This document shows positions 8,413-24,073 of a stretch of DNA of 64,000 nt, piece after piece (position 1 is the first letter of the stretch; each line of letters starts with the position of its first letter). The stretch comes from an uncultured Gemmatimonadota bacterium. Lineage in GTDB: Bacteria > JAAXHH01. Location of the stretch: NCBI GenBank assembly GCA_951812955.1, contig OX638340.1, positions 864,001 through 928,000 of the forward strand, written 5' to 3'. The translations under genes and the position numbers were made by a program. Below the pieces are notes generated by a model. The model was given only the letters and a program-made list of their open reading frames with translations. It did not search any database and was not told where the DNA came from.

Positions 8413-8501
8413 TCCACTGCCGCTTCGGAAGCGAAATGCTGCCAGTGATTTTCGTAGCTTGTGAACGCACTTCCGCTCGTCCGCGAGCAGGATTCCGCCT
8501 C

Positions 8502-10088
8502 ATGTACCGATTCTTCATGACCCTTGCCTTCGTCCTGGCGGCCGCGTGTCCCGTCACCGCCCAGGACTACGATGTCTCCGATCTTCAAACCCGCGCCGAA
8601 TTATCCGATTTCGAAGAGACGACCAGGTACGAGGAGGTAATGTCCTTCCTACGGGCCACGGTACTCGCCTCCGACCGGCTTCATCTGACCGAATTCGGTT
8701 ACACGACCGAAGGCAGGGCGCTGCCCCTGCTTGTCTACGGCGACGTCTGGGACGCATCCGCGGCGGAAATCGCCCTTACCGGGAAAACGAGAGTATTCAT
8801 ACAGGCGAACATCCACGCAGGTGAGGTCTGCGGCAAGGAAGCCCTGCTCATGCTTATCCGGGAACTGGCCTCCGGAGCGTACACCGACTGGGCCGATTCG
8901 CTGGTGTTGCTCATGGCACCCATTTACAACGCCGACGGCAACGAGCGGATCAGTTTGTACAACCGTCCGCGCCAACACGGACCCGTGGGGGGCATGGGAC
9001 AGCGGCCCAATGCCCAGGGGTTCGACCTCAACCGCGACCACATGAAACTGGACTCCCCCGAGGCGCGATCCCTCGTCTGGCTCATGAACGAATACGATCC
9101 CCACGTGCTTATCGACCTCCACACCACGAACGGAACCGTTCATGGTTACCACCTTACCTACTCGCCGCCGCTGAACCCCAACACCGCAGGTCCGATCTTC
9201 GAAATGCTTCGTGGGCGTTGGCTGCCTGAAGTGCGCAGCGCCGTCAGGGAAGCCTATGGATGGGAATTCTACTATTACGGAAATGTACCCAGAGAAGGAT
9301 CGAACCGCGCCCCCGGATGGTACACCTTCGATCACCGACCACGGTTCAACAACAATTATGTGGGACTTCGAAACCGTATAGCCATTCTGAGCGAAGCCTA
9401 TTCCTACGCAACCTTCGAAGAACGCATCCTGGCCACCCTGGCCTTCGTGCGGGAGAATCTACACTACGCCCACCGGAACGCGTCTTCGATACGCGAAACC
9501 CTCGAATCCGTGGACCTGGAACCGGTCGTGGGACAGGACATGGCCGTACGTTCCGACTTTGCCCGGTCCGGGGACCCGGTCGAAATCCTGTTAGGTGAAG
9601 TCGAGGAGACGCGAAACCCCTACACCGGCGAAGTCATGTACCTCAGAAAGGAAGCCAGGAATCCGACTTCGATGTACGAATATGGACAATTCTCCGCTGT
9701 AGAGACGGAGCGTGCGCCCAGGACGTATTTCGTTCCCCCCTCCATGACAATCGTAATCGAACGGCTCACGGCCCACGGCATCTGGTTCGAGGAACTCTCC
9801 AGTCCACGCGAACTGGCGCTGGAGCGATTCAGGATAGCATCGTCGCAGGCCGCCGAGCGCCCCTTCCAGGGCAGACACGAGCGGACGCTGACGGGCGCGT
9901 ACGAGCCGGTGGTCCGGACGCTGGAAGCCGGCACGCTGGTCGTACCGGTGGATCAGCAACTGGGCAGACTGGTATTCTACCTGTTGGAACCCCGGTCCGA
10001 CGACGGTCTGGTTGCATGGGCGCTGATGGACGATGTCCTCTCGGGCGCGGAGTACTACCCCATTCTGCGTGAACCCGCTGACCGGTAA
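8502..10088 (+). CDS. Secreted M14-family zinc carboxypeptidase
   Basis: Signal peptide MYRFFMTLAFVLAAACPVTAQ, an HxxE zinc motif (IHAGEVCGKEA) and a downstream His ligand region. The start was refined from the track's 8436. Confidence 0.75.
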   Translation: MYRFFMTLAFVLAAACPVTAQDYDVSDLQTRAELSDFEETTRYEEVMSFLRATVLASDRLHLTEFGYTTEGRALPLLVYGDVWDASAAEIALTGKTRVFIQANIHAGEVCGKEALLMLIRELASGAYTDWADSLVLLMAPIYNADGNERISLYNRPRQHGPVGGMGQRPNAQGFDLNRDHMKLDSPEARSLVWLMNEYDPHVLIDLHTTNGTVHGYHLTYSPPLNPNTAGPIFEMLRGRWLPEVRSAVREAYGWEFYYYGNVPREGSNRAPGWYTFDHRPRFNNNYVGLRNRIAILSEAYSYATFEERILATLAFVRENLHYAHRNASSIRETLESVDLEPVVGQDMAVRSDFARSGDPVEILLGEVEETRNPYTGEVMYLRKEARNPTSMYEYGQFSAVETERAPRTYFVPPSMTIVIERLTAHGIWFEELSSPRELALERFRIASSQAAERPFQGRHERTLTGAYEPVVRTLEAGTLVVPVDQQLGRLVFYLLEPRSDDGLVAWALMDDVLSGAEYYPILREPADR

Positions 10089-10119
10089 CCACCCTGAATC
10101 CATTCACCATGGAGCCCGC

Positions 10120-11082
10120 ATGCCCGGACGCGTCATCCTGGACACCGATACGGGAGTCGACGACGCCCTGGCCATTCTGTTGGCCATGCGGTCCCCCGAA
10201 CTCGGTATCGACGCGATCACGGGCGTCTGCGGAAACACGCCCCTCGACCACTGCATGCGGAACATACTCATCACGCTGGACGTCCTCGATGCCGGGCAAA
10301 AGCCGGTTGTAGCCCGTGGCGAGGCCAGACCGCTGGTCCGTGAACTGTCCTTTGCGGGGGACATACACGGAGACGACGGACTGGGCGAGGTGACCCGGCT
10401 GGTGGATTCGGAAGGCACACGCGTCTATCCGGATCCGGTGCAACTGGAAAGTCCCATCCACGCCGTCGACCTGATCCTCGAAAGCGCGGACCGGCACCCG
10501 GATGAACTGACCCTGGTCGCCGTCGGTCCGCTTACCAACGTCGCGCGAGCCATCATGAAGGATCCGGAACGCATGCGCGGACTCCGGGAGATCATCATCA
10601 TGGGCGGCGCTTTCGAGACCGGTGGGAATGTTTCACCGGTGGCGGAATTCAATATCCACGCCGACCCCCATGCCGCGCAGATCGTTTGCGATTCCGGGAT
10701 CCCCCTGGTCTTCGTCCCGCTCGACGTGACCAGGCAGGCCTTCCTGGACGCCGGTACGATAGGCCGATACGCCGGCGAGGGAAGCGCCAGGGCGACCTTC
10801 GTGCGGGACTGCACCGCCCGGTACGTCGCGTTTCACCGGCGCAACCGGGGAGTCAACGGCTGCTTTCTTCACGACCCACTTGCCGTGGCCGTCGCCATCC
10901 GGGAAGACCTCGTTACGAAGGTGCCGGCCCGGGTGGACGTGGAAACCGCCGGTGATCTCACATCGGGGATGACGGTGTCGGACCTCCGTTCAGCGCGATG
11001 GGGCGAACCGAACGCGAGGGTCTGCACCGCGTTGGACGTTCAAGCTTTCATCAGGCTGTTCGAGGAAAGGGTGCTCGCATGA
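10120..11082 (+). CDS. Nucleoside hydrolase (IU-preferring / RihA-like)
   Basis: The N-terminal DTDTGVDDALAI aspartate cluster is diagnostic of nucleoside hydrolases. About 320 aa. ATG at 10120. Confidence 0.85.
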   Translation: MPGRVILDTDTGVDDALAILLAMRSPELGIDAITGVCGNTPLDHCMRNILITLDVLDAGQKPVVARGEARPLVRELSFAGDIHGDDGLGEVTRLVDSEGTRVYPDPVQLESPIHAVDLILESADRHPDELTLVAVGPLTNVARAIMKDPERMRGLREIIIMGGAFETGGNVSPVAEFNIHADPHAAQIVCDSGIPLVFVPLDVTRQAFLDAGTIGRYAGEGSARATFVRDCTARYVAFHRRNRGVNGCFLHDPLAVAVAIREDLVTKVPARVDVETAGDLTSGMTVSDLRSARWGEPNARVCTALDVQAFIRLFEERVLA

Positions 11083-11813
11083 TCTTAAGAGACCGCACGG
11101 CCATCGTCACCGGCGGCGGACAGGGAATCGGCCGGGCCATATGCGGAATCTTCGCGGAAGAAGGCGCTACCGTCGTCGTCGTGGATATCGATGCAGACCG
11201 TGCAGGGGAGACGGCTCGCCAATTGAATGAGAAGGGCTACCCCGCAAGAGCCGTCCGGACGGACGTCTCCGTCGGGGCGGAGATCGACGCCCTGGTCGAC
11301 GGGGCCGTCAAGGACTACGGCCGCGTTGACATACTCGTGAACAACGCGGGACTCGCCCTGTTCAGGTCAGTGGAACTGTGCACGGAGGCAGAATGGGACC
11401 GTGTTATGGCAGTAAACCTCAAGGGACCGTTTCTGCTCGCAAAGGCCCTTTTGCCCGCGATGAAAGCGCAGCGGTCCGGGGCCGTGATCAACCTGGCCTC
11501 GGTGGCGGGGAAGACCGGCGGTGTGGTGTCCGGCGCGCCCTACTCGGTATCCAAGGCCGGAATCGAGTGCCTGACCAAGTCGCTGGCCCGGGAACTGGCG
11601 CCGTTCGGGGTACGGGTCAACGCCATCGCGCCCGGAATAATCGATACCGCCTTGACCGCCAATCACGATCCATCGTTCGTCGAAGCAATCCCCCTGGGAG
11701 GGAAGGGTGAACCCCGGGACGTGGCCGAGGCGGCGCTGTTTCTGGCATCGGACAGGTCGCGGCACATCACCGGCGAGATCCTGGACGTCAACGGCGGCCT
11801 GCTGATGGACTGA
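11079..11813 (+). CDS. SDR-family oxidoreductase (FabG-like)
   Basis: TGGGQGIGRA Rossmann motif, NNAG, and the YSVSKAG (YxxxK) catalytic motif. Its start overlaps the upstream stop as ATGA. Confidence 0.85.
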   Translation: MILRDRTAIVTGGGQGIGRAICGIFAEEGATVVVVDIDADRAGETARQLNEKGYPARAVRTDVSVGAEIDALVDGAVKDYGRVDILVNNAGLALFRSVELCTEAEWDRVMAVNLKGPFLLAKALLPAMKAQRSGAVINLASVAGKTGGVVSGAPYSVSKAGIECLTKSLARELAPFGVRVNAIAPGIIDTALTANHDPSFVEAIPLGGKGEPRDVAEAALFLASDRSRHITGEILDVNGGLLMD

Positions 11814-11850
11814 CCGGGCCCCGGCACCGTATTGCTGATGGACTGACCGG
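11801..11850. repeat. Tandem duplication (about 17-bp core GCTGATGGACTGACCGG, twice) spanning the SDR stop codon
   Basis: Read directly at 11801-11817 and 11834-11850. The first copy contains the gene's TGA. Confidence 0.6.
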
Positions 11851-11886
11851 CACCCTGGCATTCATGTCGATCGTAAGGACGGGAAG

Positions 11887-12543
11887 TTGCCTGCCATGAC
11901 CGCAGCGGTTTCAAATTTCGCCGTGGATGTCGTTGACCGGTATGCGAAGGATCCCGGCAGGGTCGCCCTGCAATGGCAAAAAGCCGGCGCCGTGGCGACG
12001 GACGTCACCTTCCTGGATCTGAAAATACGTTCCGAAAAGGTCGCCCACGTGCTTCACCGTCACGGTGTGCGCCCGGGCCATCGGGTATTCATCCTGCTTC
12101 CTCCCTGCATGGCCTGGTGGGAGTCGATAGTTGGATGCATGCGGGCCGGCGCCGTGGCCGCGCTGGGGCAGGACGCATCCGATGCGCGGTTACTAAAGGA
12201 TCAGATCATTCAGTCCCGATCGACGCTCGTAATCGCGTCGGCCTCGCTTGCTGACCAGGTCGGCCGCATCATGGATGGCTGTACCGGGATCGCCCACTGG
12301 TTCTCCGTCGGCTGGGAGCGCGAGGGCTGGGTGGACTACGACCGCCGCGTCTCCCTCGCTCCGGCCGGGTTCAAGGCGGTTGAGACCCGGGAAACCGACC
12401 CCTGTATCGTCGTGTACGACCGGGGAACATCAGCCAGCGGAACAACACACCGGCACGGCGATGAAGGCTACGATCTGGAGCAGCTCGACGCGTGGCGCGA
12501 CGGGCTGGCCATCGCGGTGCACGACGCCTCCGAGCATCCATGA
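11887..12543 (+). CDS. AMP-binding (acyl-CoA synthetase-like) N-terminal domain only, with a degenerate P-loop; translationally coupled to the downstream CoA-transferase
   Basis: 218 aa resembling the first ~200 aa of adenylate-forming enzymes. The core TSGTTGxPKG motif is replaced by DRGTSASGTTHRHGD. The ORF ends in ATGA overlapping the next start. The C-terminal two-thirds of a normal ~500-aa synthetase is absent. Confidence 0.55.
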   Translation: MPAMTAAVSNFAVDVVDRYAKDPGRVALQWQKAGAVATDVTFLDLKIRSEKVAHVLHRHGVRPGHRVFILLPPCMAWWESIVGCMRAGAVAALGQDASDARLLKDQIIQSRSTLVIASASLADQVGRIMDGCTGIAHWFSVGWEREGWVDYDRRVSLAPAGFKAVETRETDPCIVVYDRGTSASGTTHRHGDEGYDLEQLDAWRDGLAIAVHDASEHP

Positions 12544-13700
12544 TACCCGCGCTGACCGACCACCTCGTCCTGGAGCTGACCACGCAGTTGCCGGGTCCCT
12601 ACTGCGCCATGCTGCTCGCAGATCTCGGCGCCAGTGTGATCAAGGTGGAGCCGCCCGGCGGAGATCCCCTGCGCCGTTTTCCCCCGGCTTTCGCCAGTGT
12701 CAACCGCGGCAAGCGGAATATCGTGATCGATTTAAAAAAGGAAGCGGGCGGGGAGGTCATGCGCCGCCTGGTCAGACGGGCGGACGTCGTGCTGGAGGGA
12801 TTCCGGCCTGGCGTGGCCGGACGGCTCGGCGTGGACTACCCCTCGGTAAAACACCTCAATCCCGCCATCGTGTATTGCTCCATTTCGGGGTTTGGCCAAG
12901 AAGGCCCCTACCGGAACCGCGCCGGTCATGACATCAACTATCTCGCGATCGGTGGTCTGCTGGGACGCGGCGATCCGCCCGCGGTCCCTCCCGTTCTGAT
13001 TTCGGACCTGTCCTCTGGCCTGTACGCCGCGCTGGCCGTTTCCGCCGCGCTGATGCACCGGACGGCCACGGGAGAGGGTCGCTTTATCGATCTGTCCATG
13101 ACCGACTGCATCCTGTCCTGGATGGCCCTGGATATCGCCACTGCCGCGCAGGAACCTAACGCGGCGCGACAGCAGTTTCTCGGAGATATCCCGCACTATG
13201 GTGTATTCGAGACTTCGGACGGCCGGCACATCAGCCTCGGGATCGTCCACGAGGATCATTTCTGGACCCGCCTCTGCGATGTCCTGGGACTGGAAGACTG
13301 GCGGGACTGGTCCTCGGGAAAACGGTTGAACAGGGCGGCCGCGATACAGGGAAAACTCCAGGCCGTTTTCGCCACGGATTCCTGCCACGAATGGGACCGA
13401 AGGCTGCGGGAAGCCGATGTGCCCTGTGCCCCCATTTACAACCTTGACGAGCTGACGGACGATCCTTATATACAGTACCGGAATCCGTTTTACAGTCTCG
13501 AAGCTTCCGATCAGTCGGCGAGCCGTCAGGTCAAAGCGCCATACCGAACAGATGCGCCGGAGGCCGAAGCACCGCTCCCGCCTCCTGTCCTGGGCGAAAA
13601 TACACGGCAGGTACTCTCGCAGTCCGGGTACGACGACGGTGAAATCGACCGCTTGATACAACAGGGTGCAGTACACGAATCCCATAACGGGGAGAAGTAA
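12540..13700 (+). CDS. Family III CoA-transferase (CaiB/BaiF/alpha-methylacyl-CoA racemase family)
   Basis: The N-terminus LELTTQLPGPYCAMLLADLGASVIKVEPPGGDP is characteristic of the family. About 386 aa. Confidence 0.85.
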   Translation: MIPALTDHLVLELTTQLPGPYCAMLLADLGASVIKVEPPGGDPLRRFPPAFASVNRGKRNIVIDLKKEAGGEVMRRLVRRADVVLEGFRPGVAGRLGVDYPSVKHLNPAIVYCSISGFGQEGPYRNRAGHDINYLAIGGLLGRGDPPAVPPVLISDLSSGLYAALAVSAALMHRTATGEGRFIDLSMTDCILSWMALDIATAAQEPNAARQQFLGDIPHYGVFETSDGRHISLGIVHEDHFWTRLCDVLGLEDWRDWSSGKRLNRAAAIQGKLQAVFATDSCHEWDRRLREADVPCAPIYNLDELTDDPYIQYRNPFYSLEASDQSASRQVKAPYRTDAPEAEAPLPPPVLGENTRQVLSQSGYDDGEIDRLIQQGAVHESHNGEK

Positions 13701-13721
13701 CCGAATCCTAAAGGAGATATC

Positions 13722-15455
13722 ATGAGCATCCGCGTGAGAAACTGGCGCGACCAGGCACCTTACGTCGGGCATATCAGCGCGTTGGTCTGGACGCTGTACC
13801 AGTCCCATGACAAAGACGAAACGTCTCCGCCGGACGTAAACCGGCTGCATGGGATCAACAGCTTCGTCAAGCACGGGCTGCAAGGCCACCAGCATTCGGA
13901 CCACCACAGTCACGACAGTATCGAGCAGTTGTACTTCATACTACGGGGGCGCGGCCAGCTCACCATCGGCGACGACAAGGTGGATGTCCGGGACGGTACG
14001 GCCGTCTACATGCCCGTAAACGTGCCTCACCAGGCCTTCAACGACGGAGATGGCTGGATGGAGCATCTTATCGTCAGTTGCCCGCTGGACGAAATCCGGG
14101 AGGGCACGTCCGCGGTCCGGGACTGGCGCGACGTCCATCCGGTGGTGCTGGGAGACGGGACCGTATCCTGGCCCCTGTTGCTGCGCGAAGAGGAGGCCCC
14201 GGCCGGCGAAGGCGGCGTTCTCCAACGCGTCCATAGCGTGACCCGCTACGCCGTCCAAGGACGCCGGGAGACCGACTGGCAAGAGCTGGACGGGATTGAG
14301 CTGGTCCACTACGTGATCAGCGGATATGGGACCATCGAAGAGCTGGACGATAACCAGCAGTTGGTCACGGAAGGCTCCGCGGTCCACGTACTTCCAGGCG
14401 AAGCACACAGATTCATAAACCAGGGCGAAGGATGGTTCGAATACGTCACGTTCGCGGTCGAAGTAGGAGAAATCGAGGTGCCGGATGAATCCGACCAGGA
14501 CGAGGACTCCGATGAAACGGCCGTGCAAGCCGGCGAGGCGGAAGCCGCCGCCGCTACGGTATTGACGGATGTCGATTGGGATGAAGCCGACGCTGTGGAA
14601 ACCGAAGAAGAAATCGAGGAATCGGTGACTTCCGACGCGACCGAAGAGGATGTGGACGAGGCCGAGGCTGCAGTCGAATTGGAAGATGACGACTCCGGCG
14701 AAATCGAAGCTGCAGCCGATGAAACTGACGAGGATGCGGGGGACGAGGATGCGGGGGACGAGGATGCAGGAGACGCGGAGGAAGATGACGACTCCGGCGA
14801 AATCGAAGCTGCAGCCGATGAAGCAGACGAGGATGCGGGGGACGAGGATGCAGGAGACGCGGAGGAAGATGACGCGGAGGAAGATGACGACTCCGGCGAA
14901 ATCGAAGCTGCAGCCGATGAAGCTGACTCGGTAGAAGATGATGATGCCGAAGAAGATTCTGACGCGGTAGATGACGATGACGCGGAAGTCCAGGATCTGA
15001 CCGATATCGGCGAGGATCAGGAAGAAGACGGTGACGTCGACGACGCTGGAGTCGCCGAAATAGACGATGACGCCGAAGTAGACGATGACGCGGAAGTCGA
15101 GGATCTGACCGATACCGGCGAGGATCAGGAAGACGCGGAAGACTACGATGACGCCGAAATAGGCGATGACGCGGTAGAAGACGATAACCTGGAAGAAGAT
15201 ACTGACCCGGACGACGATGACGCGGAAGTAAACGACCTGGCAGATACTGGCGAGGATCAGGAAGACGCGGAGAACGCCTCGATCGAAGCAGAGGAAGAAG
15301 ACGGGACAGACGATTCATCAGGGGACGAGGAAGAGGAAGATTTCGACCTGGAAGACGATGACGCGGAGTTCGATGTCGAAGCCGAAGATGAAACCGCCGT
15401 GGAGGACGAAGCGGGGGATGAGGACGAGGATTCCCCTGATGCGGACAGACGGTAA
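13722..15455 (+). CDS. Bicupin-domain protein with a ~330-aa polyacidic, internally repetitive C-terminal tail
   Basis: Two cupin-like segments sit in residues 1-250 (HQHSDHHSHDSIEQLYFILRGRG...; VHYVISGYGTIEEL...AHRFINQGEGWFEY). The tail is composed almost only of D/E/A/G with repeated DDDSGEIEAAADE(A/T)DEDAGDEDAGD and AEV(Q/E/N)DL(T/A)D(I/T)GEDQED modules. Confidence 0.65.
   Translation: MSIRVRNWRDQAPYVGHISALVWTLYQSHDKDETSPPDVNRLHGINSFVKHGLQGHQHSDHHSHDSIEQLYFILRGRGQLTIGDDKVDVRDGTAVYMPVNVPHQAFNDGDGWMEHLIVSCPLDEIREGTSAVRDWRDVHPVVLGDGTVSWPLLLREEEAPAGEGGVLQRVHSVTRYAVQGRRETDWQELDGIELVHYVISGYGTIEELDDNQQLVTEGSAVHVLPGEAHRFINQGEGWFEYVTFAVEVGEIEVPDESDQDEDSDETAVQAGEAEAAAATVLTDVDWDEADAVETEEEIEESVTSDATEEDVDEAEAAVELEDDDSGEIEAAADETDEDAGDEDAGDEDAGDAEEDDDSGEIEAAADEADEDAGDEDAGDAEEDDAEEDDDSGEIEAAADEADSVEDDDAEEDSDAVDDDDAEVQDLTDIGEDQEEDGDVDDAGVAEIDDDAEVDDDAEVEDLTDTGEDQEDAEDYDDAEIGDDAVEDDNLEEDTDPDDDDAEVNDLADTGEDQEDAENASIEAEEEDGTDDSSGDEEEEDFDLEDDDAEFDVEAEDETAVEDEAGDEDEDSPDADRR
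14682..15260. repeat. In-frame tandem DNA repeats (about 99-114-bp units x3, then further about 60-bp units) encoding the acidic tail
   Basis: Units beginning gaagatgacgactccggcgaaatcgaagctgcagccgatgaa sit at about 14682, 14780 and 14880. A second repeat type (gaagt..aggatctgaccgata..ggcgaggatcaggaaga) recurs at about 14985, 15095 and 15225. Confidence 0.7.
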
Positions 15456-15467
15456 ACGAAAGCGTAC

Positions 15468-16370
15468 GTGAACAACCTACCCGCCCGATCGTTCGGGCGA
15501 ACCGGCATGCGTCCGGCGGCATTGGCCATGGGAGCCGCCTTTCTGCACGAGAGCCCCGAGGCAGTCGAAGCCATCCAGACCGCCCTGTCGCTGGGCATCA
15601 ACTATTTCGATACCTATCCGGGCCACCACGAGGAAAAGTGGGGAGAGGCGCTCTCCGGCGTACCCCGTTCCTCCTACTACCTCCAGGCCAAGATCGGCAC
15701 CCATCCCGATCGAAAAAAGGATTTCTCGGGGGACGGCGCCAGGTGGAGCCTGGACCGCAGCCTGCGGGACCTTAAGACAGACTATCTCGACTCCGTTCTC
15801 GTACACGATCCGACCGATGTGGATGAATTGCTGCACGAAGGTGCGGTATTCGACGTGCTGCGCCAATTGAAAGCGCAGGGCGTGGTGAGGAACATCGGGC
15901 TCGGCGCCCGGTCCCATGACTGGCACGTCCGGCTGATCGACGAAGGCATTTGCGACGTCTCCCTGACCTTCCTGGACTACACCCTGGTCAACCAGTCTGC
16001 CGCCGCAACCATCTTTCCATCGGCCAGAAAGCACGAAACCGGAGTAATCCTGGCCAGTGTGCAGGGCATGGGACTGCTGACCGGATCGGAACCCGATCCC
16101 GAGCGGGAGCGGGGCATGCATCCCGGATCCGAGCCGAGGGCGCACGGGATCTGGACCTGGTGCCGTGAGCACGGCGTCAACATTCGTCACCTGGCCATCC
16201 AATTCTGTCTGGCTGCGCCGGTGGACAGCGTGGTCATGTTCGGCCCGGCTTCTATCCGGCACGTGTACGATGCTTACGAGGCCGCCACGGAAACCATTCC
16301 ACCCGATATGTGGGAGAAACTCGAGCACGACTTCGGCATCCGGCTCGGGATGAGTGACGGGCCGTCGTAA
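15468..16370 (+). CDS. Aldo/keto reductase family oxidoreductase
   Basis: 300 aa of the AKR fold with the motifs INYFDTY, LQAKIG and DSVLVHDP. The true start may be the internal Met at about 15510. Confidence 0.7.
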   Translation: MNNLPARSFGRTGMRPAALAMGAAFLHESPEAVEAIQTALSLGINYFDTYPGHHEEKWGEALSGVPRSSYYLQAKIGTHPDRKKDFSGDGARWSLDRSLRDLKTDYLDSVLVHDPTDVDELLHEGAVFDVLRQLKAQGVVRNIGLGARSHDWHVRLIDEGICDVSLTFLDYTLVNQSAAATIFPSARKHETGVILASVQGMGLLTGSEPDPERERGMHPGSEPRAHGIWTWCREHGVNIRHLAIQFCLAAPVDSVVMFGPASIRHVYDAYEAATETIPPDMWEKLEHDFGIRLGMSDGPS

Positions 16371-16432
16371 CTACTGCAGCGTTCTTCAATGGAAACCCGC
16401 TCATCATGAGGCAATCTCGACCTCGTCCATTC

Positions 16433-16520
16433 CTGACGCCAGCATCACACGGAACCCGGTCCGCATGTCCTCCAATCCTGGCGCCAGCATCTCACGGAAC
16501 CCTATCCCCATGTCCTCACT
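16433..16520. repeat. About 45-bp tandem duplication that duplicates the amidohydrolase start region (two ATGTCCTC starts)
   Basis: gacgccagcatcacacggaacccggtccgcATGTCCTCC and ggcgccagcatctcacggaaccctatccccATGTCCTCA are read directly. Confidence 0.65.
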
Positions 16521-17271
16521 GACCTTCTCGCCCCGCGTACCCGTCATCGACGCGAATGTATGCGTGGGCAATCACCATACCGGACCATCGCCCTGCCAAA
16601 GTCCCGCGCATCTACTCGGCGAAATGGATTTTCACGGCGTCCGGCGCGCCGTGATCTATCACGCCCAGGGAGAACAGATAAGTCCGACCGACGGCAACAT
16701 GCACCTGGAGGACTGGCTCGACGCGGATGAAAGGCTCATCCCTCAATGGTCGGTCGCCCCGGTGGAAACATCCATGCGGCAGATCGCCGAACTACACCGA
16801 CGGGGCCGGGTGAAATCCGCCCGCCTGCACGATTGCCAATCCGCCGGCCTTCCGTTTCTCCCATGGGGTTACGACGACCTGCTGTCCTTACTCTCGAGCG
16901 AGAGGATTCCGCTCTGGATCCCGTTGATGGACGTGGAAGCGGATCACCTGGTCACGACGCTGAAGGCTTATCCGGACCTGTGCACGGTGCTCATCGGTGC
17001 GCATTACACCCACGCGCTGGTCGTACGGGGGCTGCTGGAAGCAAATTCCAATACCATGCTGGAACTCAGCCGCTACGAACCCATCGGAGAAGTGGAGGCG
17101 CTCGTGGATCGTTTCGGTGCGGATCGATTCGTATACGGGTCCTGGTATCCAAGGTACGCCATGGGTCCAATCCTGTTCTATCTGCATCACACGCGCATCA
17201 GCGAGGATGATCTCGCCCGGATCTGCGCCGGAAACGTCGAGCGGCTGCTCGGACTCACGGAGGGGTCATGA
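16510..17271 (+). CDS. Amidohydrolase-2 family (PF04909-like TIM-barrel metal-dependent hydrolase/decarboxylase)
   Basis: VIDANVCVGNHH at the N-terminus, a YGSWYP motif near the C-terminus, and about 254 aa. Start chosen at the second MSS (16510); the duplicated upstream MSS (16465) is an alternative start. Confidence 0.65.
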   Translation: MSSLTFSPRVPVIDANVCVGNHHTGPSPCQSPAHLLGEMDFHGVRRAVIYHAQGEQISPTDGNMHLEDWLDADERLIPQWSVAPVETSMRQIAELHRRGRVKSARLHDCQSAGLPFLPWGYDDLLSLLSSERIPLWIPLMDVEADHLVTTLKAYPDLCTVLIGAHYTHALVVRGLLEANSNTMLELSRYEPIGEVEALVDRFGADRFVYGSWYPRYAMGPILFYLHHTRISEDDLARICAGNVERLLGLTEGS

Positions 17272-18017
17272 TAGACGGCACGAGGGTGATCGATTACCAC
17301 GGGCACGTGGGCAGATGGGAACGTTACGGCATGGTGGACGACCCGGAACTCATCCTGGGTGCCATGGATGCCGTCGGAATCGATATTGCGTGCCTGTTCC
17401 ACATATTCCATCCGGACGGCACGACGGGCAACGATCTGACCGCGCAATTCGTCGCCCGGAACCCGGACCGCTTCGTGGGCTTCGCATACGTTTCCCCTAC
17501 CATGCCCGACCGCATGGTGCCCGAACTGGAAAGGGCGATCGACAAGCTCGGGTTTCCGGCCATCAAGCTCTACCCGCCCTATACGCCCTGGCCCTTCAAC
17601 GAGGAACCATGGCATCCGATCTATGAATTCGCCCAGGACCGGGGCCTGGCCATCATCTTCCATACAGACCATTTCATCAACAGCCGTCCCCGTTACTTTG
17701 AAGACCTCGCGCCGGCCTACCCACGGGTGAATTTCGTTTCCGCGCACTGCGGCAACGTGCCTGAAGCACGCGCGGAAGCCATCGCCGCCGCGCAGAAATT
17801 CCCGAATGTCTACCTGGAGACCTGTTCGACCTACCGGACGCCCGGCGTGATCGAAGAACTGGTGGAAAAGGGCGGAGCCGACCGCGTGCTGTACGGATCG
17901 GACATGCCCCTGATGGATCCAAGGCCGCAGATCGGAAAGATCATCACTGCCCGGATCTCAAACGAGGCGAAACGCATGGCGCTGGGTGAGAACGCGGCCC
18001 GGCTGCTGGGCATATAG
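17268..18017 (+). CDS. Amidohydrolase-2 family protein (paralog of the upstream gene)
   Basis: VIDYHGHVG, HTDH and YGSDMP motifs. ATGA overlap with the upstream paralog. Confidence 0.75.
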   Translation: MIDGTRVIDYHGHVGRWERYGMVDDPELILGAMDAVGIDIACLFHIFHPDGTTGNDLTAQFVARNPDRFVGFAYVSPTMPDRMVPELERAIDKLGFPAIKLYPPYTPWPFNEEPWHPIYEFAQDRGLAIIFHTDHFINSRPRYFEDLAPAYPRVNFVSAHCGNVPEARAEAIAAAQKFPNVYLETCSTYRTPGVIEELVEKGGADRVLYGSDMPLMDPRPQIGKIITARISNEAKRMALGENAARLLGI

Positions 18018-18072
18018 GACATCTGACGTATCCTTCTGATTCTGATCGACCACCCTCGACCTGGAGGTTTGC

Positions 18073-19065
18073 GTGATTCTCGGCCAAGCTGAACTGCACA
18101 ACGTACACGAATTGCTGGACGATCCCGGAGGACAGGGCAGCATCTGTTGCCGCGTACCGAATGACCTGCGCGTGACTTTAAACGAATCGGCGAAAAACAA
18201 CGCGCTGCAGGCAACGGGGTGCGAAATCCGATTCAACCTGGAGGGGTCACGGGCGGTCATCACGCTCCAAAGCCCCGAAGGTCCGACACTTGCGGAAGTA
18301 TACCAGGGCGATTTCTTCAGCGCCCTGCACATCGTCGACGCAACGCCGACGCGGATTGTCGTGGAACGTCCGGAGTCCGAGCCGGATATGCGCAAGGTAA
18401 CTCCGTCCAACGCGCGCTTCGACACCGGCCTTACCCGCGTAGTCCTGCCGTGGCGTCCCGCCGTCCGGCTGATCTCCATCGAGGGCGAGACATCGCTACC
18501 GGGACCTGAGCAGTCGCCGGACACCCGCTACCTCGCCTACGGTTCGTCGATCACCCACGGCAGCACGGCCGTGCGGCCCACGGGCACGTACCCCGCCCGC
18601 ACCGCCGAACTGCTCGGCACCGACCTGTTCAACCTGGGCTTCGGCGGAGGCGCCCACATGGAAGCGGGCATGGCGGATTACATCGCCGGGCGAGAGGATT
18701 GGCACGTCGCGACGCTCGAGATGGGCATCAACGTAGTCCAGTCCTTCGAAGTGGACGAGTTTCATCGGCGCGTGGAGTACTTCGTAACGACAATTGCTGA
18801 CGCCCATCCCGATGACTGGATCTTCTGCATTGACATCTTCCCGTGCCGATATGATTTTACGGGCGTCGAAAAGTGCGAGACTTTCCGGTCCATCGTGGCG
18901 GAGCGGGTCCGGCAACTGGACCGGCCGAAGCTGGTGCACGTTCCGGGAGATGCCATGCTTCGGTCAATCAACGGTCTTACGGTGGATCTCGTGCACCCGG
19001 CCCCCGGTGGGTTCGAAGAGATGGCGCGGAACCTGTCGGATATCATCAGTACACATCGAAAATAG
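18073..19065 (+). CDS. SGNH/GDSL-type hydrolase with an N-terminal extra domain
   Basis: The C-terminal half has a GSSITHG block-I serine motif, a GG block and a DLVHP block. The 150-aa N-terminal domain is of unknown function. Confidence 0.6.
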   Translation: MILGQAELHNVHELLDDPGGQGSICCRVPNDLRVTLNESAKNNALQATGCEIRFNLEGSRAVITLQSPEGPTLAEVYQGDFFSALHIVDATPTRIVVERPESEPDMRKVTPSNARFDTGLTRVVLPWRPAVRLISIEGETSLPGPEQSPDTRYLAYGSSITHGSTAVRPTGTYPARTAELLGTDLFNLGFGGGAHMEAGMADYIAGREDWHVATLEMGINVVQSFEVDEFHRRVEYFVTTIADAHPDDWIFCIDIFPCRYDFTGVEKCETFRSIVAERVRQLDRPKLVHVPGDAMLRSINGLTVDLVHPAPGGFEEMARNLSDIISTHRK

Positions 19066-19127
19066 ACGGTATCAGCACGTAACCGGCAAAGATCCTTTCA
19101 TCATCCAGCATACCAAAGGGGAAACAA

Positions 19128-20159
19128 ATGGAAACCATCCGGGTAGGCGTGGTCGGCGCAGGCACCAATACCGTGGCCATGCATATACCGAAACTCCAGG
19201 CGATCGAAGGGGTGGAGATCGTCAGCGTCTGCAACCGCAGTCGCGCATCCTCGGAACGCGTGGCCGCGCAGTTCGGCATACCGACCGTCTACGAGACGTG
19301 GACCGAACTGATCGAGGCCGACGATACCGATGCCATTGTCGTCGGCACCTGGCCCTACCTCCACTGCGCCACCACCTTGGCGGCCCTGGCAAACGGCAAG
19401 CACATCCTGACCGAGGCGCGCATGGCCATGAATCTCGAAGAGGCCCAGCTCATGCACGACGCCGCGCAGAGCAACCCGGATCTCGTCGCCCAGATCGTGC
19501 CTTCCCCCATGACGCTCTGGGCCGACAAGACCATCCAGCGCCTGATCGCGGAAGGCTACGTGGGCGACATACTCAGCGTGGAACTCCGCTCCTCCGGCAG
19601 CGACTTCATCGACCGCGACGGCCCCATGCACTGGCGGCAGAACGTCGATTTCAGCGGAATGAACATCATGACCATGGGCATCTGGTACGAGGCCATGCGA
19701 CGCTGGGTAGGGGATCCGCTGTCGGTGTATGCCCAGGGCAAGACCTTCACGAAAATGCGCCGTGATGCCGAAACGGGCGTAATGCGCGCCGTTAAGGTGC
19801 CGGAGCATATAGACATCGTGATGGACTTGATTTGCGGCGCGTCGGCCTATGTCAAGATTTCAACGGTCCAGGGACTCGCCGACGAAAGCGACGCCACGAT
19901 CTATGGCAGCGAAGGAACGATCCGCATGGGCGACGGGAAAATCTACGGGGCGCAACGTGGAGACGACGCCCTGGCCGAGATTGAAATACGTCCCGAAGAC
20001 CACGCGGAATGGCGTGTGGAAGAGGAATTCGTCAATGCCATCCGCGGCCTCGAAAAGGTTTCCCACACGCCTTTCGACGTAGGCGTCAAGTACATGGAAT
20101 TCACCGAGGCAGTGACCCGCAGCATGGCGGAAGGCAAGGCCATAGCCCTGCCGCTCTAG
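19128..20159 (+). CDS. Gfo/Idh/MocA family oxidoreductase
   Basis: VGVVGAGTNTVAMHIPKL Rossmann N-terminus, and the EARMAMNLEEAQ motif. Confidence 0.8.
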   Translation: METIRVGVVGAGTNTVAMHIPKLQAIEGVEIVSVCNRSRASSERVAAQFGIPTVYETWTELIEADDTDAIVVGTWPYLHCATTLAALANGKHILTEARMAMNLEEAQLMHDAAQSNPDLVAQIVPSPMTLWADKTIQRLIAEGYVGDILSVELRSSGSDFIDRDGPMHWRQNVDFSGMNIMTMGIWYEAMRRWVGDPLSVYAQGKTFTKMRRDAETGVMRAVKVPEHIDIVMDLICGASAYVKISTVQGLADESDATIYGSEGTIRMGDGKIYGAQRGDDALAEIEIRPEDHAEWRVEEEFVNAIRGLEKVSHTPFDVGVKYMEFTEAVTRSMAEGKAIALPL

Positions 20160-22495: not shown

Positions 22496-24073
22496 ATGCC
22501 CAGTATGAACGGCGGCGAAGCACTGGTCAGGTCGCTGCATTCACATGGCGTGGAAGTCGTTTTCGGCCTTCCGGGCGCCGGTCAGTATGAAGCCATCGAC
22601 GCGATCTACAGGCAGGAAGGCATGCGGTACATCACGACACGCAACGAACAGGCGATCAGCTACATGGCCGACGGATACGCGCGCGTGAGCGGCAAGCCGG
22701 GCGTGGGTATCGCGGTTGAAGGGCCCGGGTTCTTTAACACGACGGCCGGACTGGCCACCGCCTTTGCGCAGTCGTCGCCCGTTCTGCTCATCACGGGAGA
22801 CCATCACGGCGTGTCCGTACCCGGCCGTTCCAGTCACGACAGCCTGGGAGAGTATGGAGCCTATTCGAAATGGGCGGGGCGGGCCGACACCCCGGCGGAC
22901 ATCCCCGGCCTGGTGCGGGAAGCATTCAGGCACCTGAACACGCCGCGTAAGCGCCCGGTCATCCTCGAGATAGGCCCCAATGTATTCCGGGCCGAAGCGG
23001 CGGTGGACTTTCCGGAAGCCGAGACCCATTCACCCGCGGCGGGCGATTCGGGACAATTGGATCGCGCGGCCAGGCTGCTTGCGGAATCGAAACGGCCGCT
23101 GATCTGGGTCGGCGCCGGAGCGTCCGAAGGCGCGCCGCTGGTCAGGAAGATCGCGGAACACCTGGGCAGTCCGGTCGTCAGCAGCCGCAGCGGCAAGGGC
23201 ATCCTTTCGGCGCGGCATCCCCTTTCGCTTGGGATGTTCGAGGCGCGCTTCAAGCCGCTTAAAGACCGCGTGGACGAATGCGACGTGATCCTGGCCGTGG
23301 GCACGGCGACCGACATGAGCGGACGCCTGGGTGCGCAGACGGTGATCCGGATCGATGACGATCCCGACGAAATCGGCCGGGACGGTGCCCATACGCTCGG
23401 TATCCAGGGTGACGCCACGATGAGCATGGAGGTCCTGTACCATAGCCTGTCGGGCCTGTGCGATCCCAGGGCCAACGTCACCGAGGACATCCAGGCGGTC
23501 AATACCCACCGGTTCGGTCCCGGGGAACAGCTCCAGCCCCAGGGCGCTTTCATGGACGCCATGCGGGCGGCCATCCCGGACGACGGGATCCTCGTGGGCG
23601 GGATGAACCAGATGGGGTATTACAGCCGGAATTACTACCACTCCTATTCGCCCCGTGGATACCAGACTTCCTCGCATCACGGCACGCTGGGCAGCGTGTT
23701 TCCCGTGGGCATCGGTCTCAAGATCGGGCGGCCCGACCGCGCGGTCGTCGTAGTTTCCGGCGACGGGGGCATCCTATACAACCTCCAGGAACTCGCCACG
23801 GCCGTGAAATACGGCGTAAACGTCGTGACCATCGTCTTCAACGACAACGCCTACGGCAACGTATGGCGGGCCCAGGTAGAGGAATTCGATGGCCATGTCA
23901 TCGGCACCGAACTCCACAATCCCGATTTCGTCAAACTGGCCGAAGCCTATGGGGCAAGTGGCGTGCTCGCGGAGGACGCCGCGCAGTTGGAAGCGGCAGT
24001 CAGCGAAGCCGTATCGGCGGACACCCCCACGGTGATCGAGGTGCCGGTCGGCCCCTGGGAGAGAAGGTACTAG
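22496..24073 (+). CDS. Thiamine-pyrophosphate enzyme (acetolactate-synthase-like / 2-ketoacid decarboxylase family)
   Basis: 525 aa. N-terminal Pyr domain (FGLPGAGQYEAIDA), and a C-terminal GDGG-like TPP-binding motif (VVSGDGGILYNLQELATA...NNAYGN). Confidence 0.85.
   Translation: MPSMNGGEALVRSLHSHGVEVVFGLPGAGQYEAIDAIYRQEGMRYITTRNEQAISYMADGYARVSGKPGVGIAVEGPGFFNTTAGLATAFAQSSPVLLITGDHHGVSVPGRSSHDSLGEYGAYSKWAGRADTPADIPGLVREAFRHLNTPRKRPVILEIGPNVFRAEAAVDFPEAETHSPAAGDSGQLDRAARLLAESKRPLIWVGAGASEGAPLVRKIAEHLGSPVVSSRSGKGILSARHPLSLGMFEARFKPLKDRVDECDVILAVGTATDMSGRLGAQTVIRIDDDPDEIGRDGAHTLGIQGDATMSMEVLYHSLSGLCDPRANVTEDIQAVNTHRFGPGEQLQPQGAFMDAMRAAIPDDGILVGGMNQMGYYSRNYYHSYSPRGYQTSSHHGTLGSVFPVGIGLKIGRPDRAVVVVSGDGGILYNLQELATAVKYGVNVVTIVFNDNAYGNVWRAQVEEFDGHVIGTELHNPDFVKLAEAYGASGVLAEDAAQLEAAVSEAVSADTPTVIEVPVGPWERRY

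What the first reader, a model, noticed from the sequence alone, without database searches (positions are those of the whole stretch)
11887..13700. Degenerate, truncated AMP-binding domain translationally coupled (ATGA) to a family-III CoA-transferase
The 218-aa product of 11887..12543 aligns to the N-terminal subdomain of acyl-CoA synthetases only. Its P-loop core is mutated (YDRGTSASGTTHRHGD in place of TSGTTGxPKG), and the whole C-terminal catalytic half is missing. Its stop overlaps the start of a CaiB/MCR-type CoA-transferase. Either this is a gene remnant, or it is a non-catalytic adaptor subunit that has become dedicated to the CoA-transferase. The ATGA coupling and the intact upstream reading frame favour the latter.
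Basis: partly seen in the sequence, partly recalled or inferred. Interest (0 to 1): 0.5.

Follow-up and report, generated by a model that had tools for sequence, protein, structure and literature searches.

The report
Conserved stand-alone acyl-CoA synthetase fragment gene
This short gene is not a broken acyl-CoA synthetase: it encodes a catalytically dead first third of one, kept as its own small protein under selection in one operon of several uncultured bacterial lineages, but it is not an obligatory partner of the CoA-transferase next to it.

Summary
Window 11896..12543 (+) encodes about 215 aa that match only the first about 170 of 384 Pfam AMP-binding positions. Its stop overlaps the start of a full-length family III CoA-transferase (ATGA, 12540-12543). 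No other synthetase remains occur in the window or in any relative.

It is not simple decay. More than 50 relatives (94 to 42% identity) from MAGs labelled Gemmatimonadota, Latescibacterota or Zixibacteria are all 208-231 aa. They sit in one operon: M14 peptidase, nucleoside hydrolase, SDR, short fragment, CoA-transferase, bicupin. dN/dS is 0.16-0.26. The AlphaFold2 model is compact (pLDDT 85.5) and superposes on the start of medium-chain acyl-CoA synthetases (TM 0.83-0.87). The P-loop region varies across the family, so adenylation is lost.

The "dedicated CoA-transferase adaptor" reading is weakened.
- Zixibacteria-type loci have the fragment without the transferase.
- One lineage has the transferase without the fragment.
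- ATGA overlaps also join other gene pairs in this operon.
- The fragment is the fastest-evolving operon member.

Best reading: a repurposed, non-catalytic, dispensable accessory protein of an uncharacterised, probably nucleoside/sugar-acid, pathway. Its molecular role is unknown. I rate it a new variant of a known kind, of moderate interest.

The parts
11896..12543 (+). Short ANL protein (sANL), 215 aa. It is a stand-alone first alpha/beta subdomain of a medium-chain acyl-CoA-synthetase-type N-terminal domain. An in-frame TTG at 11887 would give 218 aa.
   Evidence: Pfam AMP-binding positions 6-169/384. Best PDB relatives are 3etc and ACSM2A. More than 50 homologues are all 208-231 aa. dN/dS is 0.16-0.26. 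AF2 pLDDT 85.5, pTM 0.86.
12415..12462 (+). Degenerate P-loop (A3 motif) region, YDRGTSASGTTHRHGD. It is a variable loop in the family. Only His187 (which aligns with the His after PKG) and Gly188 are conserved.
   Evidence: Alignment A1. HMM alignment to 3etc/ACSM2A. Conservation table.
12307..12360 (+). Family-specific, near-invariant motif VGWEREGWVDYDRRVSLA (residues 138-155).
   Evidence: Invariant or at least 93% conserved in 52 family members and different in full-length synthetases. It is altered (VGWNHEGWVDYNRHVSLA) in L036, whose sister lineage lost the gene.
12454..12504 (+). Family-specific C-terminal motif HGD..(F/Y)xL..LDAWRxG (residues 187-203). It lies in the strand-helix-strand stretch that ends the protein.
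12540..12543 (+). ATGA stop/start overlap between sANL and the CoA-transferase.
   Evidence: It is conserved in the 23 close-clade loci whose junction was read, and close-clade L033/L034 show the same abutting coordinates. It is absent in distant clades.
12540..13700 (+). Family III (CaiB/Frc/MCR-type) CoA-transferase, 386 aa, apparently intact.
   Evidence: CoA_transf_3 profile 1-366/366, E 1.5e-98. PDB relatives are formyl-CoA transferase, SUGCT and MCR at E 1e-47 to 1e-53. An Asp in the ISDLSSG motif aligns with an Asp (MTD) of the best PDB hit. That this is the catalytic Asp is my recollection.
11079..11813 (+). SDR (FabG / glucose-1-dehydrogenase-like). It lies immediately upstream of sANL in every locus that has sANL.
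10120..11082 (+). Inosine-uridine-type nucleoside hydrolase, overlapping the SDR start by ATGA.
8436..10088 (+). M14 zinc carboxypeptidase-like protein, the first conserved gene of the syntenic block.
13722..15455 (+). Bicupin (conserved core about 250 aa) with a clade-specific acidic repetitive tail. It is the conserved downstream neighbour.

Best explanation
Gene 11896..12543 encodes a stand-alone, catalytically dead derivative of a medium-chain acyl-CoA synthetase (MACS/ACSM/MbcS branch of the ANL superfamily). It keeps only the first alpha/beta subdomain plus a short new C-terminal cap.

Shown:
- The truncation is old and fixed, not recent decay.
- The short form is conserved in length and sequence in several lineages labelled Gemmatimonadota, Latescibacterota or Zixibacteria.
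- It always sits after the SDR gene of one operon: M14 peptidase, nucleoside hydrolase, SDR, sANL, family III CoA-transferase, bicupin.
- It evolves under purifying selection, and it is predicted to fold compactly on its own.

It follows from established knowledge of the ANL motifs that it cannot adenylate or thioesterify. The P-loop is lost, and everything carrying motifs A4-A10, including the C-terminal domain with its catalytic lysine, is absent.

Inferred:
- The protein was kept for a non-enzymatic accessory role in the operon's pathway, such as binding or scaffolding. Two family-specific charged patches (WEREGWVDYDRRVSLA and HGD...LDAWRxG) may mediate this.
- In the window's clade its translation is coupled to that of the CoA-transferase, so the two are made together.
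- It is not an obligatory subunit of the transferase, because each gene occurs without the other in some lineages.
- It is the least constrained and most easily lost part of the operon.
For: - Partial domain and nearest relatives.
- Fold: the model has pLDDT 85.5 and pTM 0.86, and superposes on the first about 250 residues of 3etc and ACSM2A with TM 0.83-0.87.
- Family size: 50 homologues are 134-231 aa, and all that cover the query are 208-231 aa, at 94 to 42% identity. A further 23 genome loci have intact ORFs, plus more distant members L036, L046 and L048.
- Distinctness: an exhaustive HMM search shows the true family is a small, separate group. Scores drop from above 300 to about 150 bits. 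Other roughly 217-aa hits are contig-end fragments of full-length enzymes with intact P-loops.
- Selection: dN/dS is 0.16-0.26 at dS 0.2-0.8. The codon-position GC profile matches the neighbours.
- No C-terminal synthetase remains anywhere.
- Synteny.
- The P-loop region is variable, and the family-specific invariant patches are defined.
- Independence from the transferase: Zixibacteria-type loci lack it. L038/L039 lack sANL.
- No terminator-like site on the + strand and no sigma-70-like promoter inside the block.
Against: - No partner, ligand or activity was demonstrated.
- sANL is the fastest-evolving operon member: mean Kimura distance 0.53 against 0.25-0.35 for its neighbours, and the highest or near-highest dN/dS.
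- It was cleanly lost in one lineage. In the sister lineage the 'invariant' motif is eroded.
- All this fits a marginal function.
- The rate correlation with the CoA-transferase (partial r 0.46) is no stronger than CoA-transferase with cupin (0.56), so it is uninformative.
Confidence: 0.6

Rival explanations
1. Dedicated non-catalytic adaptor. sANL is a regulatory or structural subunit that binds the family III CoA-transferase, and the ATGA coupling ensures stoichiometric co-production.
For: - Adjacent genes in most loci.
- The ATGA overlap is conserved in the 23 close-clade loci whose junction was read.
- No obvious Shine-Dalgarno sequence lies before the transferase start, by my reading of the junction.
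- Residual rate correlation between sANL and the CoA-transferase, r 0.46.
Against: - sANL occurs without the transferase in Zixibacteria-type loci from several samples.
- The transferase occurs without sANL in L038/L039, in two independent assemblies.
- The overlap is replaced by a gap of about 35-115 nt in distant clades.
- ATGA overlaps also join other gene pairs in the operon.
- The family III CoA-transferases I recall as characterised work as homodimers, or as heteromers of family III subunits, without accessory proteins (recalled knowledge, not tested here).
Confidence: 0.15
2. Functionless relic. The fragment is a leftover of a synthetase displaced by the CoA-transferase. It persists because its reading frame delivers ribosomes to the downstream gene, and because a misfolding fragment would be costly. 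On this view the protein itself does nothing.
For: - It is the fastest-evolving operon member.
- Clean loss in L038/L039 and motif erosion in L036.
- Translational coupling in the window's clade.
Against: - The short form is retained from 94 down to 42% identity across lineages given different phylum labels, with no frame disruption in any well-assembled locus.
- dN/dS is about 0.2.
- About 20 family-specific invariant, mostly charged, residues are not needed for the ancestral fold.
- It is kept in clades where it is not coupled to a downstream start.
Confidence: 0.15
3. Neofunctionalised protein. The stand-alone subdomain, possibly as a homodimer mimicking the two similar alpha/beta subdomains of an ANL N-terminal domain, has gained a new ligand-binding or catalytic site. 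That site would be built from the family-specific Asp/Arg/His/Trp residues.
For: - A dense cluster of invariant polar residues is unique to the family: W140, E141, D147, D149, R150, R151, S153, G188, D198, W200, R201.
- Confident compact fold.
- Constant operon context with enzymes.
Against: - I found no precedent in the papers searched.
- The gene is dispensable in one lineage.
- The spatial arrangement of the residues could not be inspected with the tools available.
Confidence: 0.1

Closest known systems
Medium-chain acyl-CoA synthetases of the ANL superfamily (Methanosarcina acetivorans MacS, PDB 3etc; human ACSM2A, PDB 3b7w/3c5e; NCBIfam MbcS NF047394)
   Same: Clear homology, with profile E about 1e-30 and a structural superposition of TM 0.83-0.87. 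Shared motifs of the first subdomain include NFAxDVxD, LP..WWE..G...G, GW.D/Y, DPC and the His after the P-loop.
   Different: - Only about the first 40% of the enzyme is present.
- The P-loop is degenerate and variable.
- Motifs A4-A10, the rest of the N-terminal domain and the C-terminal domain are all missing.
- It has new invariant patches (WEREGWVDYDRRVSLA, LDAWRxG).
- It therefore cannot be an adenylate-forming enzyme.
Contig-end or laboratory truncations of ANL enzymes (for example database 'AMP-binding' fragments of about 217 aa, or FadD13 N-terminal domain constructs 3t5b)
   Same: Similar length or partial domain content. Databases annotate them identically as 'AMP-binding protein'.
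   Different: Those fragments keep an intact TSGTTGxPKM P-loop and simply stop at a contig end or a construct boundary. sANL has a natural stop, a conserved length, its own C-terminal cap and a fixed operon position.
Non-catalytic accessory proteins of adenylating enzymes (MbtH-like proteins) and pseudoenzyme subunits in general
   Same: The concept is the same: a small non-catalytic protein encoded in an operon with the enzymes it assists. This comparison is my inference.
   Different: MbtH-like proteins have an unrelated fold and bind intact adenylation domains. Here there is no intact adenylation domain in the operon, and no partner has been identified.
Family III CoA-transferases (Frc, CaiB, SUGCT, MCR/AMACR), the downstream gene
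   Same: Gene 12540..13700 is a full-length member.
   Different: I know of no family III enzyme that uses an ANL-derived subunit (recalled knowledge). The comparative data here show the pairing is facultative.

Membership tests
ANL superfamily adenylate-forming enzyme (functional acyl-CoA synthetase) | Complete N-terminal domain, about 400 aa (Pfam AMP-binding, 384 profile positions) | tested here: not met
   Only profile positions 6-169 are matched. The protein ends about 40 residues later.
ANL superfamily adenylate-forming enzyme (functional acyl-CoA synthetase) | P-loop / A3 motif (T/S)SG(T/S)TGxPKG | tested here: not met
   The window has DRGTSASGTT without the Lys. The aligned stretch varies across the family, for example LPDAPGEEPRL and LSTEPNAPPST.
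ANL superfamily adenylate-forming enzyme (functional acyl-CoA synthetase) | Motifs A5, A7 and A8 (hinge), and the C-terminal domain with the A10 catalytic Lys | tested here: not met
   No such sequence occurs in any frame of the window or in 31 related loci.
ANL superfamily (homology only), MACS/ACSM/MbcS branch | Significant sequence and fold similarity to the first subdomain | tested here: met
   NCBIfam MbcS E 1.8e-21. PDB profile E 2e-30. Foldseek E 2e-16, TM 0.83-0.87.
Pseudogene / decaying remnant | Frame disruptions, variable truncation points and dN/dS near 1 among relatives | tested here: not met
   Lengths are uniform at 208-231 aa and ORFs are intact. dN/dS is 0.16-0.26. The one split copy is on a 3x-coverage contig where the neighbouring gene is also short.
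Obligate two-subunit enzyme (sANL + CoA-transferase) | Strict co-occurrence of the two genes | tested here: not met
   sANL occurs without the CoA-transferase in L001-L003, L030 and L041. The CoA-transferase occurs without sANL in L038/L039.
Obligate two-subunit enzyme (sANL + CoA-transferase) | Physical interaction | not testable with these tools
The mirror-tree signal is unspecific.
Family III CoA-transferase (downstream gene 12540..13700) | Full-length CoA_transf_3 domain with the catalytic Asp | tested here: met
   Profile 1-366/366, E 1.5e-98. An Asp in ISDLSSG aligns with an Asp (MTD) of a formyl-CoA transferase structure. Its identity as the catalytic Asp rests on my recollection. Substrate, and whether it is a transferase or a racemase, were not determined.

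The most novel reading that the evidence does not exclude
sANL may be the first recognised free-living ANL subdomain: a domain fragment of an acyl-CoA synthetase that became an independent, selected protein. Its new binding function (ligand, CoA-ester or protein partner) would serve an uncharacterised nucleoside/sugar-acid pathway of FCB-group bacteria (Gemmatimonadota, Latescibacterota, Zixibacteria), many of the MAGs apparently sponge- or coral-derived. It would then be a natural example of how a catalytic domain is dismantled and one piece is repurposed.
Probability: 0.3. Interest if true: 0.55.

Novelty: new variant of a known kind. Interest (0 to 1): 0.4.

Why it matters
If the protein does have its own function, two things follow. 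First, the initial alpha/beta subdomain of the ANL fold would be an autonomous folding unit that evolution can reuse. That is relevant to the evolution and engineering of adenylation domains. Second, a family now annotated 'AMP-binding protein / acyl-CoA synthetase' in MAGs would be mis-annotated, and this inflates the predicted fatty-acid or acid-activation capacity of these bacteria. The finding also marks a well-conserved, uncharacterised operon (M14 peptidase, nucleoside hydrolase, SDR, CoA-transferase, bicupin) as a target for pathway discovery. Because the gene can be lost, the effect is probably modest.

Tried and rejected
- Frameshifted longer gene: rejected. tblastn with full-length synthetases P0065 and P0070 finds nothing beyond their residue about 226 in the window or in 31 loci. 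The off-frame ORF 12248..12931 has no Pfam hit.
- Split enzyme with the other half nearby: no second ANL piece in the 64-kb window or within 5-8 kb of the gene in the relatives. The rest of those genomes could not be searched.
- Other short ANL families: the roughly 217-aa hits of the exhaustive search (P0053, P0054, P0063...) are contig-end fragments of normal enzymes with intact P-loops.
- Foldseek against afdb50: library unavailable.
- Mirror-tree co-evolution: partial correlations were unspecific.
- Literature searches for truncated or pseudoenzyme ANL proteins and for this operon returned nothing relevant.
- Programmed frameshift fusing the two ORFs: I saw no slippery heptamer at the junction (my reading of the sequence). 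Distant clades have a spacer between the two genes.
- P0038 as a decayed copy: it lies on a 3x-coverage contig where the CoA-transferase call is also short, so sequencing errors are more likely.
- The Planctomycetes cupin relative (37% identity) lies in an unrelated context and gives no information.

Full report
**1. What is in the sequence**

The ORF at 11887..12543 (+) is real. Relatives begin at the ATG at 11896 (MTAAVSNFAVDVVD...), which gives 215 aa.

- Pfam AMP-binding matches residues 20-177 to profile positions 6-169 of 384 (E 7e-17). NCBIfam's best model is the MbcS-type acyl-CoA synthetase, again only over its first about 190 positions.
- The stop TGA (12541-12543) overlaps the ATG (12540-12542) of a 386-aa gene that matches CoA_transf_3 end to end (E 1.5e-98).
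- That gene has an Asp (ISDLSSG) aligned with an Asp (MTD) of a formyl-CoA transferase structure. I take this to be the catalytic Asp from memory of the family.
- tblastn with two full-length synthetases finds only their residues about 20-226, and nothing else at E<0.1 in the 64-kb window or in 31 related loci. The overlapping off-frame ORF has no Pfam hit.

**2. It is a conserved family, not a one-off remnant**

- A search of 5.8 billion proteins returned 50 homologues from 94% down to 42% identity. Every one that covers the query is 208-231 aa.
- A genome scan added 23 loci in MAGs labelled Gemmatimonadota, Latescibacterota or Zixibacteria. Several isolate names (for example APA_bin, IRC1_bin, Plut) suggest sponge or coral metagenomes.
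- Cupin-anchored searches added more distant members, L036, L046 and L048.
- An exhaustive profile search of 1.8 billion representatives shows the true family is small and distinct. Scores fall from above 300 bits to about 150 bits.
- The roughly 217-aa proteins just below that drop are contig-end pieces of normal enzymes with intact TSGTTGxPKM loops.
- Pairwise dN/dS between the window and ten relatives is 0.16-0.26, at dS 0.18-0.77. The codon-position GC profile matches the neighbouring genes.

**3. Fold and conserved residues**

- With the family alignment, AlphaFold2 gives a compact alpha/beta model (pLDDT 85.5, pTM 0.86).
- The model superposes on the first about 250 residues of M. acetivorans MacS (3etc) and human ACSM2A, with query-normalised TM 0.83-0.87.
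- Many invariant residues are inherited from medium-chain synthetases: NFAxDVxD, LP..WWE..G, GW, DPC, and His187 after the P-loop.
- The P-loop stretch itself is a variable loop in the family.
- About 20 residues are invariant only in the short family. They cluster in WEREGWVDYDRRVSLA (138-155) and HGD...LDAWRxG (187-203).
- Everything carrying motifs A4-A10 is missing, including the C-terminal domain. From established knowledge of ANL enzymes, adenylation and thioester formation are therefore impossible for this protein alone.

**4. Genomic context**

- In all loci the gene lies in one syntenic block: M14 peptidase, inosine-uridine-type nucleoside hydrolase, SDR, sANL, family III CoA-transferase, bicupin.
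- This block is often preceded by argininosuccinate synthase.
- It is followed by DUF218, or by an AKR and two Amidohydro_2 genes. Some clades have GFO/IDH/MocA oxidoreductases inserted.
- Further neighbours in relatives are an HpcH/HpaI aldolase, MR_MLE, DHDPS and PhyH. These suggest oxidative catabolism of a nucleoside-derived sugar or sugar acid. That is my inference only.
- No terminator-like site on the + strand and no sigma-70-like promoter interrupts the block.

**5. Relation to the CoA-transferase**

- The ATGA overlap is conserved in the 23 close-clade loci whose junction was read (68-93% identity).
- The more distant clades have a spacer of about 35-115 nt.
- Zixibacteria-type loci, recovered from several samples, have SDR, sANL, cupin with no transferase.
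- Conversely, L038/L039 are two independent assemblies that match apart from a single mismatch across the operon genes. They have SDR and CoA-transferase 33 nt apart with no sANL.
- Their sister L036/L037 is 80-87% identical in the flanking proteins and keeps sANL, but with changes in the otherwise invariant motif (VGWNHEGWVDYNRHVSLA).
- ATGA overlaps also join IUNH/SDR and the two amidohydrolase genes in the window. The overlap is the operon's general packing style, not evidence of a complex.
- sANL is the fastest-evolving member: mean distance 0.53 against 0.25-0.35, and 42-53% identity where its neighbours are 52-72%.
- A mirror-tree analysis gave no specific signal.

**6. Interpretation**

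The 'simple decay' option is refuted. The 'non-catalytic protein' option is supported. The 'dedicated to the CoA-transferase' part is not supported.

The most likely history is inferred. An ancestral operon encoded a medium-chain acyl-CoA synthetase. CoA-ester formation was taken over, probably by the CoA-transferase. The first subdomain survived as an independent protein with a new C-terminal cap and new charged surface patches.

Its present role is most likely accessory and non-enzymatic, such as binding or scaffolding within the pathway. It is useful enough to be kept under selection in most lineages, yet it can be lost. I put this at about 0.6. The rivals are:
- dedicated transferase adaptor, 0.15;
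- functionless relic kept by coupling or misfolding costs, 0.15;
- new ligand-binding or catalytic function, 0.10.

**7. Comparison with what is known**

The protein is homologous to the MACS/ACSM/MbcS branch of the ANL superfamily. It fails every functional membership criterion: complete N-terminal domain, P-loop, A5/A7/A8, and C-terminal Lys.

I found no description of a conserved free-standing ANL first subdomain in the literature searches. My recollection offers only laboratory constructs and MbtH-like accessory proteins, which have an unrelated fold.

I rate it a new variant of a known kind, with moderate interest (0.4). The practical point is that these proteins are annotated 'AMP-binding protein / acyl-CoA synthetase' in MAGs, although they cannot be synthetases.

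**8. Limits**

- No interaction, ligand or expression data could be obtained.
- Whole genomes could not be scanned for a complementary C-terminal ANL piece.
- The taxonomic labels of the MAGs are those of the depositors.

Noticed in passing
window 11800-11822 and 11833-11855: A 23-nt direct repeat (91% identical, spacing 33 nt) duplicates the last codons and the stop of the SDR gene inside the SDR-sANL spacer. The spacer length varies from 2 to about 140 nt among close relatives, which suggests repeated small indels here.
   Followed up: partly
window 13722-15455 (tail about 14481-15455): The bicupin gene carries a roughly 325-aa extremely acidic, repetitive Asp/Glu-rich C-terminal tail (repeats such as DDSGEIEAAADE.DEDAGDEDAGD; GC1 0.86). 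Relatives' cupins range from 242 to 485 aa, so the tail is clade-specific and varies in length.
   Followed up: partly
window 11079-11082 and 17268-17271: ATGA stop/start overlaps also join the nucleoside hydrolase to the SDR and the two Amidohydro_2 genes. Translational coupling is therefore the general style of this gene string.
   Followed up: yes
window 8436-20159; L004, L046, L048: The conserved block and its variable neighbours look like an uncharacterised oxidative nucleoside/sugar-acid catabolic cluster shared by FCB-group MAGs. The genes are an M14 peptidase, IU-nucleoside hydrolase, SDR, CoA-transferase, bicupin, AKR, two Amidohydro_2, GDSL and GFO/IDH/MocA. In relatives they also include DUF218, PhyH, an HpcH/HpaI aldolase, MR_MLE and DHDPS.
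   Followed up: partly
L036 4037-4699 compared with L039 4723-4756: Two related marine-metagenome lineages (80-87% protein identity in the flanks) differ by the clean presence or absence of the whole sANL gene between the SDR and the CoA-transferase. The retained copy has substitutions at four otherwise invariant residues.
   Followed up: yes
L049 633-2284: On a 3x-coverage contig, sANL is split into two ORFs and the CoA-transferase call is short (243 aa). This is probably sequencing frameshifts rather than pseudogenes.
   Followed up: no
window 22496-24073 and 12540-13700: A TPP-dependent enzyme (525 aa) lies about 9 kb downstream of a CoA-transferase whose best solved relative is a formyl-CoA transferase, next to a bicupin. 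This superficially recalls oxalate metabolism (Frc, oxalyl-CoA decarboxylase, a bicupin oxalate decarboxylase). It was not examined.
   Followed up: no
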